Shown here piece after piece: positions 27,036 to 61,545 of a DNA stretch of 64,000 nucleotides. The position numbers were made by a program, and so were the translations under genes. Numbering within the stretch: the first letter of the stretch is position 1; each line of letters starts with the position of its first letter. A model generated the notes under the pieces. That model worked only from the letters and a program-made list of their open reading frames with translations. It did no database searches and was not told where the DNA came from. The stretch is from the NCBI GenBank assembly GCA_046539305.1, contig JBKHHE010000002.1:35928-99927 (forward strand), written 5' to 3'. The DNA is from Candidatus Aenigmatarchaeota archaeon. GTDB lineage: Archaea; Aenigmatarchaeota; Aenigmatarchaeia; PWEA01.

Positions 27036-27241
27036 GCCGGGGTAGCGAAGCCAGGTTCAACGCGCCGGATTTGAGACCGGATTTGTTGACGTGAGGATGA
27101 CAAAAGGTTTGCAAGAAATCCGGTGGGCCGTGTAGGACCTGCAGCCGCGGAAGCCCGCGTGGGTTCAAAAGAAAACCCTTTCAAAAAGTGTTTTCATTCC
27201 CAAAGGAGAAGGGGTTTCGGGAAGTCCCACCCCCGGCGCCA
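27036..27241 (+). tRNA. tRNA-Ser (anticodon TGA) with about a 42-nt intron at 37/38, an expanded variable arm and about a 56-nt insertion in the T-loop. CCA is encoded
   Basis: Acceptor GCCGGGG/CCCCGGC; anticodon arm CCGGA-TTTGAG[...]A-TCCGG; T-arm GTGGG-TTCAAA[...]T-CCCAC. Confidence 0.65.
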
Positions 27242-28597: not shown

Positions 28598-29383
28598 ATG
28601 GAGATAAAGAAGATGGAAGAGAAGAATGAAACCCTGAAGGTGCTGGTCAAAGACACGAATCCGGCTATGATGAACGCCCTTAGAAGGATCTCAATGAAAG
28701 GAATCCCTGTGCTCGCAATAGAAGACGTGGCTATTGTGAAGAACAACTCCCTCCTCTTCGACGAGGTAATAGCCCAGCGTCTGGGTCAAGTTCCCCTCGA
28801 TTTTGATCCGGACAAGTTCGAAATGCATGGGGAATGTGACTGTGAAGAAGGCTGCCCGAACTGCGAGGCAGTGTTCTCGTTAAAGGTGGAGGGACCAGGA
28901 AAGGTTTACTCTGGGGATCTTGTCTGTGAGTCAGGCGAAATCGAGCCGTTTTACGATGAAATACCTCTAACGGAGCTGGACGAAAACCAAGAGATTGAGA
29001 TGGAGGCCACGGCTATCCTGTCCACTGGAGAAGATCACTCCAAGCACCAGGCGGCTATCTCCTCATATCAGTATTATCCTATAATAAACGTGGATCAGGA
29101 TGAACTCACCAAAAAGGAGAAAAAGGAAGTAGCCGAGCTTTGTCCCCGTGGTGTGTTCGAAGTAAAGGATGGGAAGCTTGAGGTTACAGAGGAAGCAAGG
29201 TGTACGCTCTGCAGGGAGTGTGTGGAGGCAGTAGGCCCAGAAGGTATCACAGTCGCAGGAGACGATGAGAAGTTCATATTCAAGGTCGAGTCTATATCAG
29301 CGCTTGAACCTGACTGGATTATAAAAAAGACCGCTGAGATACTGGAGGAGAAGGCCGACAAGGTAATAGACAAGCTGGATTAG
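28598..29383 (+). CDS. rpoD: DNA-directed RNA polymerase subunit D
   Basis: RpoD homology with cysteine cluster (CDCEEGCPNC...CTLCREC); conserved position after S11. Confidence 0.88.
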   Translation: MEIKKMEEKNETLKVLVKDTNPAMMNALRRISMKGIPVLAIEDVAIVKNNSLLFDEVIAQRLGQVPLDFDPDKFEMHGECDCEEGCPNCEAVFSLKVEGPGKVYSGDLVCESGEIEPFYDEIPLTELDENQEIEMEATAILSTGEDHSKHQAAISSYQYYPIINVDQDELTKKEKKEVAELCPRGVFEVKDGKLEVTEEARCTLCRECVEAVGPEGITVAGDDEKFIFKVESISALEPDWIIKKTAEILEEKADKVIDKLD

Positions 29384-29559
29384 CGGGGGTAACCAAGTGG
29401 TCAAAATTGAAATTTTGACTTTCGCCAGCAAGCTGACGAAATGGTCAAAATATGGCCAAAGGTGCAGGACTTAAGGCAACTTAAGTGTTGAGGTATAAAT
29501 CCGATGATAAGAAATCCTGTGGCTTAGTGCCTTCGTCGGTTCAAATCCGGCCCCCCGCA
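29383..29559 (+). tRNA. tRNA-Leu (anticodon TAA) with about a 53-nt insertion in the D-loop and about a 38-nt intron at 37/38. Its first base is the last base of the rpoD stop codon
   Basis: Acceptor GCGGGGG/CCCCCGC; anticodon arm CAGGA-CTTAAG[...]A-TCCTG; T-arm GTCGG-TTCAAAT-CCGGC. Confidence 0.65.
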
Positions 29560-29574
29560 TCAGTTGGTGGAAAA

Positions 29575-32914: not shown

Positions 32915-33012
32915 GCCGCGATGGTGTAGCGGCTCAACTCTCGAAGAGAGGGGGCCAAGCATAGAGCCCTGTCGAGGCTCTGACCCGGGTTCAAATCCCG
33001 GTCGCGGCGCCA
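32915..33012 (+). tRNA. tRNA-Asp (anticodon GTC) with about a 22-nt insertion in the D-loop region. CCA is encoded
   Basis: Acceptor GCCGCGA/TCGCGGC; anticodon arm GAGCC-CTGTCGA-GGCTC; T-arm CCGGG-TTCAAAT-CCCGG. Confidence 0.65.
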
Positions 33013-33050
33013 ACTAACAAATGACGTGGTCCTTGACCACGTCCTCTGCC

Positions 33051-33191
33051 GGGCCCGTAGCTCAGTCTGGGAGAGCACTGGGCTTTTAAGAACACTTTGG
33101 AAAAACGTTCATGGAAAAATATTTTGATGGACCTTTTTCGAAAAGGTTCTAAGACACCCAGGAGTCGCGGGTTCAAATCCCGTCGGGCCCA
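33051..33191 (+). tRNA. tRNA-Lys (anticodon TTT) with about a 67-nt intron at 37/38
   Basis: GGGCCCG-TA-GCTC-AGTCTGGGA-GAGC-A-CTGGG-CTTTTA[intron]A-CCCAG-GAGTC-GCGGG-TTCAAAT-CCCGT-CGGGCCC-A. Confidence 0.75.
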
Positions 33192-33338
33192 TTTAAGACT
33201 TTGTGTTTGTAAACATTCATATGGTAAAATCGACGAAAGATTTGGATGAAACCTTTGGGAAGAAGAATCTTCCCAATACTTGGAACTCGGTTCCAATATT
33301 TTCTAAAGGTTTCTTCCTGGATCCCGTCGGGCCCATAA
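33192..33338 (+). repeat. 147-bp element directly 3' of tRNA-Lys(TTT), ending in a 16-bp direct repeat of the tRNA 3' end (ATCCCGTCGGGCCCAT); identical to copy 2 at 41209-41355
   Basis: Exact sequence identity of the two copies; internal 9-bp hairpin TTGGGAAGA-AGA-ATCTTCCCAA and palindrome GGAACTCGGTTCC. Confidence 0.8.
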
Positions 33339-41086: not shown

Positions 41087-41208
41087 GGGCCTGTAGCTCA
41101 GTCTGGGAGAGCGCTAGGCTCTTAACTTTTAAGAGCGCGTAATGGGACCGGTCGGTCCTTATGACGAAAGAAACCTAGAAGTCGCGGGTTCAAATCCCGT
41201 CGGGCCCA
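41087..41208 (+). tRNA. tRNA-Lys (anticodon CTT) with about a 48-nt intron at 37/38
   Basis: GGGCCTG-TA-GCTC-AGTCTGGGA-GAGC-G-CTAGG-CTCTTA[intron]A-CCTAG-AAGTC-GCGGG-TTCAAAT-CCCGT-CGGGCCC-A. Confidence 0.75.
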
Positions 41209-41355
41209 TTTAAGACTTTGTGTTTGTAAACATTCATATGGTAAAATCGACGAAAGATTTGGATGAAACCTTTGGGAAGAAGAATCTTCCCAATACTTGG
41301 AACTCGGTTCCAATATTTTCTAAAGGTTTCTTCCTGGATCCCGTCGGGCCCATAA
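41209..41355 (+). repeat. Second identical copy of the 147-bp tRNA-Lys-associated element with the 16-bp terminal direct repeat
   Basis: Identical to 33192-33338 over its full length; flanking sequence diverges immediately after ...GGGCCCATAA. Confidence 0.8.
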
Positions 41356-47116: not shown

Positions 47117-47330
47117 GCCGGCGTGGCCGAGTCAGGCTCAAGGCGGTGGATTCGAGTCCGGATATGTTGAGCAAACGCGATGAAAGAGAAACATCCACTG
47201 GGCGTTAAGGACAGAGCGCGTAGGTCTCACCTACGCCGGTCGACTAGGCCCGCGCAGGTTCAAAGGAACCTTTTTCGAAAAAAGGTTCATCAAAAAGGAG
47301 AAGGTTCGGGAAATCCTGCCGCCGGCGCCA
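47117..47330 (+). tRNA. tRNA-Ser (anticodon CGA) with three insertions: about 36 nt at 37/38, about 44 nt in the variable arm (8-bp hairpin) and about 48 nt in the T-loop. CCA is encoded
   Basis: Acceptor GCCGGCG/CGCCGGC; D-arm GCC...GGC; anticodon arm GTGGA-TTCGAG[...]A-TCCAC; variable stem GGGC/GCCC; T-arm GCAGG-TTCAAA[...]T-CCTGC; followed by an oligo-T tract. Confidence 0.65.
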
Positions 47331-48883: not shown

Positions 48884-49420
48884 ATGTCTGAAGGTTTCAG
48901 CAGCAGGATATATTCAGACTGGATGAAGTCTACCCAAGAGAAGAAGTACACAGAGATACTACTGGACTTTATCCTGCCCCTGAAGAATAAGTTAAATATA
49001 GAAAACTGCCGAGTTCTTGACGTCGGTGTGGGTAAAGGATGGTTTGAGAAAAAGCTGATTGAAAGAGGTATGGACGCCGAGATTGTTGGCCTGGATATTG
49101 AAAAAACCGACTTAGCCACGGAAGGCGTTAGATTAATGCTTGGATCGGGTGACAGAATACCTCTGAAAGAGGAGAGTTTTGATTTCGTGGTTTCCTTCGA
49201 TACTGTTCACCTCCTCAAGAGTCCGGAGGAGATAGAGAGGGTTCTCAGTAAAGGAGGCTACGCACTAATCACCAGCCACTGCAATGAAAGAAACTTTAAA
49301 AAGAAGAAACAAAAAATTAACTCACTGTTCGAGATGGATGTGCTGAAGGAGGGGCTAGTGGGAGACCCTCAGGAGGAAATGAGCTACGCCGTTTTGTTAA
49401 AGAAAGGGTCCGTGGTCTAG
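48884..49420 (+). CDS. Class I SAM-dependent methyltransferase. Its last 15 nt overlap tRNA-Val
   Basis: VLDVGVGKGWF (motif I) and FDFVVSF (motif II). Confidence 0.7.
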   Translation: MSEGFSSRIYSDWMKSTQEKKYTEILLDFILPLKNKLNIENCRVLDVGVGKGWFEKKLIERGMDAEIVGLDIEKTDLATEGVRLMLGSGDRIPLKEESFDFVVSFDTVHLLKSPEEIERVLSKGGYALITSHCNERNFKKKKQKINSLFEMDVLKEGLVGDPQEEMSYAVLLKKGSVV

Positions 49421-49521
49421 CGGCTGGGAATCTTTTGTAAAGGTTGGTTATAAGATTCCACGTAAATGACGTCGCCTTGACATGGCGAAGGTCCCCCGTT
49501 CAAATCGGGGCGGACCCACCA
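49406..49521 (+). tRNA. tRNA-Val (anticodon GAC) with about a 39-nt insertion in the D-loop. CCA is encoded
   Basis: GGGTCCG-TG-GTCT-AGCGGCT[insertion GGGAATCTTTTGTAAAGGTTGGTTATAAGATTCC...]TGAC-G-TCGCC-TTGACAT-GGCGA-AGGTC-CCCCG-TTCAAAT-CGGGG-CGGACCC-A-CCA; oligo-T follows. Confidence 0.7.
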
Positions 49522-58232: not shown

Positions 58233-58346
58233 ATGGACCCGGCGGGATTTGAACCCGCGGTCTCCACCATGCCAAGGTGGCGTCTTTTCGTTGGAACCTT
58301 TTGATGAATCTTTTTGGAAAAGATTCCTTCCACTAGACTACGGGCC
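58233..58346 (-). tRNA. tRNA-Ala (anticodon GGC) with about a 38-nt insertion in the D-loop
   Basis: Reverse complement gives GGGCCCG-TA-GTCT-AGTGG[insertion]AGAC-G-CCACC-TTGGCAT-GGTGG-AGACC-GCGGG-TTCAAAT-CCCGC-CGGGTCC-A. Confidence 0.7.
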
Positions 58347-58438
58347 CTGGTAAATGCTTGGAAAACAGTTTAATAAAGATTTGGGGCCGCGCAAGGGCAA
58401 GTTTTATATAGTAGCTAGCATATTATGGCATCTGTAAG

Positions 58439-61241: not shown

Positions 61242-61330
61242 GGAACGGGACCGCCGGGATTGACGGAGGAAGCTTTCCAAAACCTTCAATTCAAATATTC
61301 TTTTTCATGAATGTTTAAAAAAGATTCTGA

Positions 61331-61545
61331 TGGGACCGCCGGGATTCGAACCCGAGATCTCCGGCTTCCATGCCGCGCACGACGGAATTTACCGAAAGCG
61401 AAGCTTTCGTAAAACACGAAAACCCGCGTTTTCGGCGATTTACGCGCGGTGGCCTTATAAGACCGGCGCTTTGGTCAAGTCTTTCCCTTTTTGATGAACC
61501 TTTTTTCGAAAAAGGTTCTTTCTAACCAAGCTAAGCCACGGTCCC
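61331..61545 (-). tRNA. tRNA with two large insertions (about 50 nt in the D-loop, about 89 nt at 37/38); the anticodon reads TAT, so a candidate tRNA-Ile(UAU)
   Basis: Reverse complement gives GGGACCG-TG-GCTT-AGCTTGGTT[insertion]-AAGC-G-CCGGT-CTTATA[intron]A-GCCGG-AGATC-TCGGG-TTCGAAT-CCCGG-CGGTCCC-A. Confidence 0.5.

What the first reader, a model, noticed from the sequence alone, without database searches (positions are those of the whole stretch)
47263..47312. A conserved palindromic ~33-nt module recurs inside the introns of different tRNAs, in both orientations
- GAACCTTTTTCGAAAAAAGGTTCATCAAAAAGG occurs essentially identically in the T-loop intron of tRNA-Ser(CGA) and in the D-loop intron of the candidate tRNA-Ile (minus strand, about 61480-61525).
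- Close variants sit in the tRNA-Ala D-loop intron (GAATCTTTTCCAAAAAGATTCATCAAAAGGTTCC) and in the tRNA-Val(GAC) D-loop intron (GGAATCTTTTGTAAAGG...AAGATTCC).
- The tRNA-Lys(UUU) intron carries it inverted (TTTTGATGGACCTTTTTCGAAAAGGTTC).
- The core GAACCTTTTTCGAAAAAAGGTTC is a perfect hairpin.
- Unrelated tRNAs interrupted at different positions thus share a mobile-looking palindromic unit. Many of the non-canonical introns may therefore derive from insertions of a small palindromic repeat family (MITE-like) that the splicing endonuclease now removes. Alternatively the module could be a shared processing or guide-RNA signal.
Basis: seen in the sequence. Interest (0 to 1): 0.72.

Follow-up and report, generated by a model that had tools for sequence, protein, structure and literature searches.

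The report
Dispersed archaeal hairpin repeat inside tRNA introns
The 30-base palindrome shared by several tRNA introns is real and belongs to a sharply bounded hairpin repeat also scattered between genes in many archaeal phyla, so it is a concrete candidate for how archaeal tRNA introns are copied from gene to gene.

Summary
GAACCTTTTTCGAAAAAAGGTTC+ATCAAAA occurs identically in the T-loop intron of tRNA-Ser(CGA) and the D-loop intron of tRNA-Ile(UAU). Variants or decayed copies lie in tRNA-Ala(GGC), tRNA-Val(GAC), tRNA-Ser(UGA) and, as a tail-to-tail inverted pair, tRNA-Lys(UUU).

The window comes from a Candidatus Aenigmatarchaeota (DPANN) genome. The unit, here called E, is not just a splicing-motif helix. 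A scan of species-representative genomes found it in more than 90 archaeal loci across many phyla. There it has sharp 28-30 nt boundaries, covarying outer stem pairs and an invariant ATCAAAA tail. Most of those copies lie in gene spacers, and some are flanked by 20-57 bp direct duplications or form tandem arrays.

In about 191 kb of Aenigmarchaeota DNA, every clear copy is in a tRNA intron. Orthologous tRNAs in relatives show gain, loss, replacement and decay of these introns. Perfect copies sit at non-orthologous sites, which implies copy-paste spread.

In the introns, E starts 1-4 nt after the 5' splice site. Its 5' arm pairs with a second GGTTC arm next to the 3' splice site, forming the intron-side helix of the splicing motif.

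The spreading mechanism and any function outside introns remain unknown. This extends the known "tRNA intron transposition" phenomenon. Interest is moderate to high.

The parts
47117..47330 (+). tRNA-Ser(CGA) gene with an anticodon-loop intron and a T-loop intron
   Evidence: In-silico spliced sequence is called tRNA-Ser(cga) by ARAGORN. Coordinates.
47265..47313 (+). T-loop (59/60) intron of tRNA-Ser(CGA), 49 nt
   Evidence: Removal restores the T-loop TTCAAAT. The minimum-free-energy fold gives the T-stem, a 7x7 internal loop and an 11-bp helix, z = -3.5.
47266..47295 (+). Element E: hairpin GAACCTTTTT-cga-AAAAAGGTTC plus tail ATCAAAA (the finding)
   Evidence: Starts 1 nt after the inferred 5' splice site.
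47297..47313 (+). Second 3' arm GGAGAAGGTTC (47297-47307), then GGGA (pairs with exon TTCA, 3 of 4) and the first two bases (AA) of the 3-nt bulge AAT that holds the 3' splice site
   Evidence: minimum-free-energy structure. Inference from the geometry of the bulge-helix-bulge (BHB) splicing motif.
61331..61545 (-). tRNA-Ile(UAU) gene with D-loop and anticodon-loop introns
61489..61518 (-). Element E in the tRNA-Ile D-loop intron (intron 61472-61522), identical to the Ser copy over 33 nt
   Evidence: The ortholog in L031 has the compensatory GAAAC/GTTTC variant.
61302..61327 (-). Degenerate E-like hairpin GAATCTTTTTT-AAACATTC+ATGAAAA directly 3' of tRNA-Ile
   Evidence: Weak; it may simply be the T-run terminator.
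58234..58347 (-). tRNA-Ala(GGC) gene with a D-loop intron (58286-58328)
58299..58326 (-). E variant GAATCTTTT-cca-AAAAGATTC+ATCAAAA. Its 5' arm also pairs with the downstream AAAAGGTTCC.
49406..49521 (+). tRNA-Val(GAC) gene. The D-loop intron (49426-49465) carries a decayed E (GGAATCTT...AAGATTCC, no tail).
   Evidence: The ortholog in L333 has no intron.
33051..33191 (+). tRNA-Lys(UUU) gene with a canonical 37/38 intron (33089-33155)
33090..33149 (+). Tail-to-tail inverted pair: degenerate E (33090-33118, +) and E (33122-33149, inverted). Together they fold into one long helix whose ends abut the splice-site bulges.
   Evidence: minimum free energy -32.1 kcal/mol, z = -5.0.
27170..27224 (+). 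T-loop intron of tRNA-Ser(UGA), a diverged homologue ('E3': GAAAACCCTTT..AAAGTGTTTTC+ATTCCCA) of the Ser(CGA) intron
   Evidence: Nearly the same intron sits in tRNA-Ser(CGA) of relative L331.

Best explanation
The module is one copy of a short dispersed repeat, here called E. E is a 9-10 bp A/T-cored hairpin (GAACCTTTT-loop-AAAAGGTTC) followed by a single-stranded ATCAAAA tail, 28-30 nt in all. It is propagated by copying, not built anew at each site.

In many archaeal phyla E lies in short spacers. Its hairpin side more often faces a gene end than a gene start.

In this Aenigmarchaeota lineage E lives in tRNA introns. There it starts 1-4 nt after the 5' splice site. Its 5' arm is the intron-side strand of the outer helix of the bulge-helix-bulge (BHB) splicing motif. 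The partner strand is a second GGTTC-type arm placed directly before the 4 nt that pair with the exon and the 3' splice-site bulge. In the Lys intron the partner is the far arm of an inverted second copy.

The splicing endonuclease removes the whole insert from the RNA, so the insert is harmless to the tRNA. D-loop and T-loop introns are portable between tRNAs because the exon nucleotides they must pair with (GTGG in the D-loop, TTCA/TTCG in the T-loop) are the same in most tRNAs.

Shown here:
- the sequence facts;
- the distribution across phyla;
- the sharp boundaries;
- stem covariation;
- gain, loss and replacement among orthologous tRNAs.

Inferred:
- splicing at the stated sites;
- that spread is at the DNA level;
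- that E is selfish rather than useful.

The enzyme that moves E is unknown.
For: Not chance
- 0 matches expected in window shuffles.

Distribution across phyla
92 are archaeal: Aenigm-, Micr-, Iain-, Woese- and Nanoarchaeota, Methanobacteriales, Methanocaldococcus, Methanomethylicales, Bathy- and Thaumarchaeota.
- Nearly all of these carry the GAAC that completes the hairpin, although the pattern did not ask for it.

Boundaries and structure
- Information content drops from about 2 bits to about 0 at both ends.
- In 21 copies anchored only on the inner core and tail, the outer 4 stem pairs covary: 3.86 of 4 paired versus 2.88 with shuffled partners, and 0 of 2000 shuffles reach the observed value. 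Variants are listed.

Copy-paste spread
- The identical 30-mer is found in window Ser (T-loop), window Ile (D-loop), L031 Ala (anticodon loop) and L006/L100 Gln (T-loop).
- The orthologous Ser(CGA) T-loop intron in five relatives carries a loop insertion, other variants, or no inner arm.
- Orthologous tRNA-Val(GAC) is intron-less in L333 and has four other intron states elsewhere.
- tRNA-Ala has E in the D-loop intron here but in the anticodon intron in L031.

Empty versus filled site
- Paralogous Micrarchaeota T-loop introns differ by presence or absence of E.

Footprints outside tRNAs
- Direct duplications of 20-57 bp flank E. Three independent cases duplicate the start of the downstream ORF (L052, L115, L011/L015).
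- Tandem [flank+E] arrays occur, and copies sit at contig ends.

Role in the splicing motif
- Folds.
- The spliced products are valid tRNAs.
Against: - No transposase or any other conserved neighbouring gene was found.
- The flanking duplications vary in length, are seen in only about 15-20% of copies, and are not evident at the D-loop intron sites. The insertion mechanism is therefore undefined.
- Near-identity of a 28-mer across phyla is unusual for a selfish repeat. It would be easier to explain by binding to a conserved host factor.
- Orientation is biased with respect to genes: the hairpin side faces gene ends 34 times versus 12 gene starts. Within introns about 12 copies are forward and 1 inverted. 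This hints at an RNA-level role.
- In Aenigmarchaeota no copy was found in ordinary spacers, so intron copies and spacer copies might spread by different routes.
- Gene calls in the loci were crude (long ORFs only).
- Splicing was not observed, only inferred.
Confidence: 0.55

Rival explanations
1. E is a host-useful RNA (or single-stranded DNA) signal: a hairpin plus AUCAAAA that is recognised by a conserved archaeal factor. In spacers it would mark or protect transcript 3' ends or processing sites. In introns it would help folding, splicing or intron fate. Its sequence conservation would then come from that factor, and copying would only be how new sites arise.
For: - Cross-phylum identity of the core and tail, with compensatory stem changes.
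- The orthologous tRNA-Ile intron keeps the hairpin through a compensatory C:G to A:T change and keeps the tail.
- Co-orientation with upstream genes, often 0-7 nt after the stop codon.
- Forward orientation in nearly all intron copies.
- A look-alike hairpin family in giant-virus contigs is strictly intergenic (1 of 113 inside ORFs) and abuts gene ends.
Against: - Many intron copies are visibly decaying (Val(GAC), Lys first copy, Ser(UGA); L334, L335), so the sequence is not needed for splicing.
- It is absent from ordinary spacers in about 191 kb of Aenigmarchaeota DNA.
- Tandem arrays and duplicated gene starts are not expected of a simple signal.
- No Rfam family matches.
- A T4-5 run inside a tRNA gene would be harmful if E were an efficient terminator.
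Confidence: 0.25
2. The intron copies form a lineage-specific family of related BHB (bulge-helix-bulge) introns that spreads only among tRNA genes. Spread would be by gene conversion through conserved D- and T-loop exon sequence, or by RNA-level reinsertion. The resemblance to spacer hairpins in other phyla would then be secondary: either they derive from escaped introns or the likeness is coincidental.
For: - All Aenigmarchaeota copies are in tRNA introns.
- Whole introns, not just E, are shared between Ser(CGA) and Ser(UGA), between Val(GAC) and Val(CAC), and between Ser and Gln.
- Micrarchaeota also carry E in T-loop and anticodon introns.
- Precedent: intron transposition in Thermoproteales (reviewed in PMC4033280 and PMC4090602).
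Against: - The same E core sits in introns at three different tRNA positions with different 3' ends. Exon-homology-driven conversion cannot explain that.
- The spacer copies match over all 28-30 nt with identical boundaries, which is far beyond coincidence.
Confidence: 0.15
3. Convergent structural constraint: each intron independently evolved a GAACC/GGTTC helix because the endonuclease needs it.
For: Many introns of this clade begin (A/G)GAAC or GAAAAC and end with the complement next to the 3' splice site.
Against: - 33-nt identity that includes the loop, the inner 3' arm and a tail that play no part in the splicing-motif helix.
- Copies in protein-gene spacers of other phyla.
Confidence: 0.03

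Closest known systems
[quoted passage not shown] 2010, as summarised in PMC4033280 and PMC4090602)
   Same: [quoted passage not shown] There is rapid gain among related species, and the mechanism is stated to be unknown.
   Different: - A different superphylum (DPANN, Aenigmarchaeota).
- The shared part here is a defined 28-30 nt hairpin-plus-tail unit.
- That unit also exists outside tRNA genes in many archaeal phyla. I did not find this reported, but the original paper could not be read.
Bacterial REP (repetitive extragenic palindrome) elements, their inverted doublets (REPINs) and the REP-associated tyrosine transposase RAYT (PMC2817692, PMC3116915)
   Same: - A 20-40 nt palindrome with a short conserved single-stranded tag at one end.
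- Extragenic location close to gene ends.
- Inverted doublets (Lys intron, L026).
- Dispersed copies without their own gene.
   Different: - REP sequences are lineage-specific, whereas E is nearly identical across phyla.
- No RAYT-like gene was found or tested for.
- REPs are not known inside tRNA introns.
- E copies sometimes carry long flanking duplications.
Miniature inverted-repeat transposable elements (MITEs)
   Same: Small, non-coding, multi-copy, with inverted terminal arms and sharp ends.
   Different: - E is far smaller than typical MITEs.
- It is asymmetric because of the 7-nt tail.
- There is no fixed-length target duplication and no cognate transposase.
tRNA gene disruption by integrating mobile elements (Sugahara et al. 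2012, PMC3293823)
   Same: Inserted DNA in or next to tRNA genes is flanked by duplicated tRNA fragments (L045: tRNA-Pro followed by two units of E plus a tRNA 3' fragment).
   Different: That model involves a 1.8-kb element with a recombinase. Here the insert is about 30 nt, and the duplicated flanks also include protein-gene starts.
Hairpin 3'-end signals of giant viruses (the 'hairpin rule' of Mimivirus transcripts; from my own knowledge, not checked in a paper here)
   Same: A/T-cored hairpins (TAAACTTTT..AAAAGTTTA) followed by CAAAA-type tails, strictly intergenic and abutting stop codons.
   Different: - Homology is not established.
- The GAACC/GGTTC form gave a single match in viral contigs, which lacks the GAAC 5' arm and looks like a chance hit.
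- The exact ATCAAAA tail is only a minority among the viral hairpins.

Membership tests
Archaeal bulge-helix-bulge (BHB) tRNA intron | Lies inside a tRNA gene, and its removal restores a canonical cloverleaf | tested here: met
   ARAGORN calls Ser(cga), Ile(tat), Ala(ggc), Val(gac) and Lys(ttt) after in-silico splicing.
Archaeal bulge-helix-bulge (BHB) tRNA intron | Splice sites lie in two 3-nt bulges separated by a 4-bp helix, or in a relaxed helix-bulge variant | tested here: inconclusive
   - Ser T-loop: T-stem / UUCA:GGGA (3 of 4 pairs) / bulges AAG and AAU / 11-bp helix.
- Lys: CUUU:UAAG (3 of 4 pairs).
- Val(GAC) and Ala D-loop introns are plausible by hand.
- The Ile D-loop register is ambiguous.
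- All registers were assigned by hand or from single-sequence folds.
Archaeal bulge-helix-bulge (BHB) tRNA intron | Cleaved by the splicing endonuclease and the exons ligated | not testable with these tools
   Needs RNA data or an enzyme assay.
Transposed tRNA intron family (Thermoproteales type) | Highly similar intron sequence in tRNAs of different identity and/or position | tested here: met
   33-nt identity between Ser T-loop and Ile D-loop. The same 30-mer is in L031 Ala (anticodon intron) and L006/L100 Gln (T-loop). The E2 variant is in L331 Val(GAC) and L031 Val(CAC).
Transposed tRNA intron family (Thermoproteales type) | Presence or absence differs between orthologous tRNAs of related genomes | tested here: met
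   Val(GAC) is intron-less in L333. Ala and Val(CAC) differ between the window and L031.
MITE (miniature inverted-repeat transposable element) | Terminal inverted repeats | tested here: met
   The two hairpin arms are inverted repeats, but the 3' tail makes the unit asymmetric.
MITE (miniature inverted-repeat transposable element) | Target-site duplication of fixed short length | tested here: not met
   Flanking direct repeats are variable (about 20-57 bp), present in a minority of copies (21 of 114 above the 99th percentile of the null), and not evident at D-loop intron sites.
MITE (miniature inverted-repeat transposable element) | A related autonomous element with the same ends and a transposase | tested here: not met
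   No protein family is shared by more than 4 of the loci within 2.5 kb of E. Only 8-kb flanks were available.
REP elements and their RAYT transposase (bacterial) | 20-40 nt palindrome with a conserved tag at one end, extragenic, multi-copy | tested here: met
   About 1 extra copy per 23 kb in archaeal loci, a rough and biased sample.
REP elements and their RAYT transposase (bacterial) | A single-copy Y1 (HUH-type) transposase gene flanked by the repeats | not tested
CRISPR repeat | Regularly spaced repeats separated by unique spacers | tested here: not met
   Arrays have identical 'spacers' (85-bp units in M. curvatus; 39- and 30-bp units in L085 and L054). Most copies are solitary.
Intron-encoded C/D box small RNA | C box RUGAUGA and D box CUGA with guide spacing | tested here: not met
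   UGAUGA exists on the reverse strand, but no CUGA follows. SNORD59 scores 12.8 bits against a gathering score of 45.
Any Rfam family | Score at or above the gathering threshold | tested here: not met
   Only tRNA and 5S rRNA were found in the window. Nothing but weak chance hits over E.

The most novel reading that the evidence does not exclude
E is an active, non-autonomous mobile hairpin found across the Archaea. Its insertion into the conserved D-, T- or anticodon loops of tRNA genes supplies a ready-made intron helix and so creates new endonuclease-removable introns. It would then be the missing vehicle for archaeal tRNA intron gain and 'transposition'. The same element would seed local duplications, including duplicated gene starts, elsewhere in genomes.
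Probability: 0.3. Interest if true: 0.85.

Novelty: new variant of a known kind. Interest (0 to 1): 0.62.

Why it matters
How archaeal tRNA genes gain introns, and how the same intron turns up in unrelated tRNAs, is an acknowledged open question. [quoted passage not shown]

Here the shared part of the introns is a defined 28-30 nt unit that also exists as a free-standing repeat in many archaeal phyla, including cultured methanogens. The question therefore becomes testable. One can look for empty and filled alleles, for the factor that binds or moves the hairpin, and for its effect on endonuclease cleavage.

The result also shows that tRNA gene finders miss most genes of this kind. ARAGORN found 2 of 12 in this window. 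It also flags a repeat that breaks assemblies of metagenome-derived genomes.

Tried and rejected
- **Promoter reading** (palindromic TATA-like core with flanking factor sites). Spacing to tRNA 5' ends (5-7 nt) and to start codons does not fit a TATA box at about -26. The window's own tRNA promoters look canonical (TTTAAATA, TTTATTAAA).
- **CRISPR repeat, or spacer integrated off-target.** Arrays have identical inter-repeat units, and most copies are solitary.
- **C/D box small RNA.** There is no D box.
- **The tail as the built-in 4-nt pairing strand plus 3-nt bulge of a self-contained BHB (bulge-helix-bulge) intron.** The arithmetic fits (4+3). However, the upstream positions show no complementary UGAU, and the real introns use a downstream strand instead.
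- **Target-site duplication as the origin of the intron 3' ends.** The Ser T-loop and Ile D-loop introns show exon-like repeats. In the D-loop introns, however, the intron 3' end is complementary to the exon (GUGG:CCAC), not a copy of it.
- **Conserved neighbouring gene or transposase.** None found.
- **Viral origin.** The GAACC form has only a single match, which looks like chance, in IMG/VR.
- **Literature search by sequence strings** returned only irrelevant hits. REP surveys that include archaea do not describe this element.
- **Metagenome scan with the exact 30-mer** returned only the two Aenigmarchaeota loci already in hand.
- **Fujishima 2010** could not be read.
Full report
**1.

- The 23-nt palindrome GAACCTTTTTCGAAAAAAGGTTC is present exactly at 47266-47288(+) and 61496-61518(-). 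Dinucleotide-preserving shuffles give no match even at three mismatches.
- With the tail ATCAAAAAGG, the two copies are identical over 33 nt.
- Fuzzy and structure-aware scans find further copies:
  - GAATCTTTTCCAAAAAGATTCATCAAAA at 58299-58326(-);
  - an inverted GAACCTTTTCGAAAAAGGTCCATCAAAA at 33122-33149;
  - a degenerate forward copy next to it at 33090-33118;
  - a tail-less GGAATCTT...AAGATTCC hairpin at 49428-49460;
  - a diverged homologue in a second T-loop intron at 27170-27224;
  - a weak look-alike just 3' of tRNA-Ile at 61302-61327.
- ARAGORN sees only 2 tRNAs in the window and Rfam sees 7. By eye there are 12, most of them interrupted.
- Removing the proposed introns yields sequences that ARAGORN calls tRNA-Ser(CGA), Ile(UAU), Ala(GGC), Val(GAC) and Lys(UUU).

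**2. Source organism**

- A window protein (ThiI-like) is 100% identical to one named "Candidatus Aenigmatarchaeota archaeon", and the CTP synthase maps to assembly GCA_046545755.1.
- Window 56-64 kb is syntenic with an Aenigmatarchaeota contig, L031, at 66-74% nucleotide identity.
- DPANN lineages are known for relaxed-specificity splicing endonucleases and disrupted tRNA genes (PMC5829648).

**3. The unit exists far beyond these introns**

- I scanned one genome per species with CTTTT-N2-4-AAAAAGRTYCATCAAAA, a pattern that omits the 5' arm.
- 92 of the 115 are archaeal, although archaea are a small minority of species in that collection (my own knowledge). They include:
  - Aenigm-, Micr-, Iain-, Woese- and Nanoarchaeota;
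  - Methanobrevibacter curvatus, Methanovirga, Methanobacterium oryzae and Methanocaldococcus;
  - Methanomethylicales, Bathyarchaeota, Thaumarchaeota and Methanofastidiosum.
- Nearly all archaeal hits carry GAAC immediately 5' of the pattern, which completes the hairpin although the pattern did not ask for it.
- Aligned on the element, information content is about 2 bits inside and about 0 immediately outside both ends. There is only a weak preference for A just upstream.
- I call this unit E. It is a hairpin of 9-10 bp with an invariant inner CTTTT/AAAAG, a 2-4 nt loop and the tail ATCAAAA.
- The same loci also hold sister variants whose outer stem pairs change together: GAAAC/GTTTC, TAAAC/GTTTA, CAAAC/GTTTG, CGAAC/GTTCG, TGACC/GGTCA and CAACC/GGTTG. 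The window itself has GAATC/GATTC.
- In 21 copies anchored only on the inner core and tail, the outer four positions pair 3.86 of 4 times. With shuffled partners the figure is 2.88, and none of 2000 shuffles reach the observed value.
- So a hairpin, in RNA or single-stranded DNA, is maintained, and the tail is read as sequence.
- No Rfam family matches. A full-text search for the sequence found nothing relevant.

**4. Contexts outside tRNA introns**

- No protein family recurs near E.
- With crude ORF calls, the hairpin side faces a gene end 34 times and a gene start 12 times, often 0-7 nt after the stop codon. The tail side faces 19 starts and 13 ends.
- About 16% of copies lie within 400 nt of an ARAGORN tRNA. 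More lie in introns that ARAGORN misses.
- E on the opposite strand directly precedes whole tRNAs (L021, L029, L096) and tRNA 3' fragments (L045 twice, L020, L056).
- A minority of copies are flanked by direct repeats of the local sequence: 21 of 114 exceed the 99th percentile of a null.
- In three independent cases the repeat contains the start codon and first codons of the downstream gene. E thus sits between a decaying copy and the intact gene start. The cases are L052 and L115 in Micrarchaeota, and L011/L015 in two Methanocaldococcus isolates.
- Repeat lengths range from about 20 to 57 bp.
- Units of flank plus E also form tandem arrays: 85 bp in M. curvatus, and 39 and 30 bp elsewhere. 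In Methanovirga, copies sit at contig ends.
- Tail-to-tail inverted pairs occur in L026 and in the window's Lys intron.
- Two paralogous Micrarchaeota T-loop introns differ by presence or absence of E in the apical loop of an otherwise conserved hairpin.

**5. Behaviour within Aenigmarchaeota**

I fetched six syntenic loci from relatives with ThiI at 53-59% amino-acid identity. I scanned about 191 kb of this phylum in total. Every clear member of the family is in a tRNA intron, and none is in a protein-gene spacer.

Orthologous comparisons show rapid turnover.

- The tRNA-Ser(CGA) T-loop intron is:
  - a perfect E here;
  - an E with a 15-nt loop insertion and a mismatch in L335;
  - an 'E2' form with a GC-rich loop and the tail GCGAAAA in L334;
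  - another variant in L332;
  - an 'E3' form in L331 that is almost the window's Ser(UGA) intron;
  - a minimal 37-nt intron without inner arm or tail in L333.
- Orthologous tRNA-Val(GAC) is:
  - intron-less in L333;
  - interrupted by a decayed E here;
  - interrupted in L331 by an E2 D-loop intron nearly identical to that of tRNA-Val(CAC) in L031;
  - interrupted by an unrelated D-loop intron in L335;
  - interrupted only by a short GAACC...GGTTC anticodon intron in L332 and L334.
- tRNA-Ala(GGC) has E in its D-loop intron here. In L031 it has E in a canonical anticodon intron, with a different D-loop intron.
- tRNA-Ile keeps E at the same place in both genomes, with a compensatory C:G to A:T change and an unchanged tail.
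- The perfect 30-mer is shared by non-orthologous sites: Ser and Ile here, Ala in L031, and Gln in L006/L100.

Perfect copies at unrelated sites, alongside diverged copies at orthologous sites, is the signature of ongoing copying or homogenisation. It is not the signature of vertical conservation or convergence.

**6. What E does in the intron (inference from folds and geometry)**

- In forward copies E begins 1 nt after the inferred 5' splice site in Ser, Lys, window Ala, L031 Ala, L044 Val and L006/L100 Gln. It begins up to 4 nt after the site in Ile.
- For the Ser T-loop intron, the minimum-free-energy fold (z = -3.5) pairs GAACCUUUUUC with a second arm GGAGAAGGUUC, not with E's own 3' arm.
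  - This leaves symmetric 7-nt strands.
  - On the 5' side the strand is UUCA+AAG, and on the 3' side it is GGGA+AAU.
  - The result is a 3-of-4 central helix and two 3-nt bulges, and cleavage there restores the T-loop UUCAAAU.
- The Ala D-loop intron behaves the same way (GGAAUCUUUU with AAAAGGUUCC), as does a Micrarchaeota Val intron in L044.
- In Lys the two inverted copies zip into one long helix whose ends abut the bulges (z = -5.0).
Its inner 3' arm and tail are loop decoration.
- The 4 nt that pair with the exon are intron-specific. In D-loop and T-loop introns, however, they pair with universally conserved tRNA sequence (GTGG; TTCA/TTCG). This explains why such introns can function after moving to another tRNA.
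- I looked for direct target duplications at intron sites. The Ser and Ile introns show exon-like repeats. In the D-loop introns the intron 3' end is complementary to the exon rather than a copy. A duplication origin of these introns is therefore not supported.

**7. Interpretation**

- The best-supported reading is that E is a small dispersed repeat that spreads by copying. In this lineage it rides in, or seeds, tRNA introns, where the splicing endonuclease makes it harmless.
- This extends the 'intron transposition' described for Thermoproteales, whose mechanism is unknown (PMC4033280, PMC4090602). It adds a new superphylum and a defined unit that also lives outside tRNA genes.
- In form E most resembles bacterial REP elements and their inverted doublets (REPINs): a palindrome plus a single-stranded tag, extragenic, and occurring as inverted doublets. 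It fails the tests for a MITE, a CRISPR repeat and a C/D box RNA.
- The main rival is that E is a useful hairpin signal recognised by a conserved factor. Cross-phylum identity, orientation bias and the compensatory change in the Ile ortholog favour that. Decaying intron copies, arrays and duplicated gene starts argue against it.
- The two readings are not exclusive. In either case, identical 30-mers at non-homologous sites require copying.
- The enzyme or process that moves E, and whether spread happens as DNA or through RNA, remain open.

**8. Side findings**

- A sister form with AAAC/GTTT stems is abundant in IMG/VR contigs. Several of these encode giant-virus-type capsid and polymerase proteins.
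- In those contigs it is strictly intergenic, abuts stop codons and forms short-period arrays.
- The exact ATCAAAA tail is a minority there, and homology to the archaeal element is not shown.
- Five related Eubacteriales/Oscillospiraceae genomes (L003, L036, L046, L064, L112) carry a full E. In four of them (L036, L046, L064, L112) it lies about 45 nt upstream of a homologous gene, which in L036 is a YgiQ-type radical SAM gene.

Noticed in passing
IMG/VR loci L120-L229 and L230-L330 (e.g. L141, L184, L199, L136/L142): The hairpin TAAACTTTT-N2-4-AAAAGTTTA followed by ATCAAAA or other N0-2-CAAAA tails is abundant in viral contigs. Several encode giant-virus-type major capsid protein or family-B DNA polymerase. 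It is strictly intergenic (1 of 113 inside ORFs), overlaps stop codons (TAA of the stem) and forms 29-38 bp tandem arrays. Its relation to the archaeal element is unknown.
   Followed up: partly
L003, L036, L046, L064, L112 (Eubacteriales/Oscillospiraceae metagenome-assembled genomes): A complete GGAACCTTTTTGAAAAAAGGTTCATCAAAA copy follows a GC-rich hairpin. In L036, L046, L064 and L112 it lies about 45 nt upstream of a conserved gene, which is a YgiQ-type radical SAM gene in L036. These are the only bacterial hits with the full hairpin.
   Followed up: partly
window 1-64000: There are twelve tRNA genes in 64 kb, ten of them interrupted (up to two or three introns each, in D-loop, anticodon loop, variable arm and T-loop). 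ARAGORN found 2 and Rfam found 7, so standard annotation would miss most of them.
   Followed up: partly
window 29383-29560 (+), tRNA-Leu(UAA): The D-loop intron without E is bracketed by three copies of (G/A)TGG(T/C)CAAA(AT). The splice register is therefore ambiguous, and the intron looks like an insertion with duplicated D-loop sequence.
   Followed up: no
window 61331-61545 (-): The isoleucine tRNA has anticodon UAU, an uncommon way of reading AUA in archaea. From my own knowledge, this is reported for Nanoarchaeum and Korarchaeum, which lack the agmatidine enzyme.
   Followed up: no
window 33002-33269 vs 41087-41286: tRNA-Lys(UUU) and tRNA-Lys(CUU), together with about 80 nt of their downstream flanks, are duplicated (83% identity over 202 nt). 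Their introns are unrelated: only the UUU copy carries E.
   Followed up: no
L011 (Methanocaldococcus sp. 16A) vs L015 (sp. 28A): At an orthologous spacer, 16A has one E. 28A has E, then a 130-nt block of other small palindromes, then a 5'-truncated second E (24 bp duplicated). Other mini-palindromes appear to insert into E in these genomes.
   Followed up: partly
L334 (Ser T-loop), L331 (Val-GAC D-loop), L031 (Val-CAC D-loop and anticodon introns): A second shared intron module, 'E2', has the form GAACCTTTT(T)-12-16 nt GC-rich loop-AAAA(A)CGTTC-(A/G)CGAAAA. It recurs in different tRNAs, positions and genomes.
   Followed up: partly
L017, L081, L013, L076, L088, L104 (Methanobrevibacter curvatus DSM 11111): Tandem arrays of an 85-bp unit (57-nt AT-rich segment plus E), with at least four units in L081, occur in a cultured methanogen. 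This organism could be used for experiments.
   Followed up: no
L020 and L056 (Methanomethylicales): An ORF with a ribbon-helix-helix-like C-terminus (my reading of the sequence; no domain search was run) reads through an inverted E straight into a tRNA 3' half (T-arm plus acceptor plus CCA). No 5' half lies nearby. This could be a remnant of an integration site or a split tRNA.
   Followed up: no
window, whole: There is strong purine excess on the + strand over 1-48 kb (GC skew up to 0.26, AT skew up to 0.39), and it flips at about 48-56 kb. This follows gene orientation. From my own knowledge, such purine loading is typical of thermophiles.
   Followed up: no
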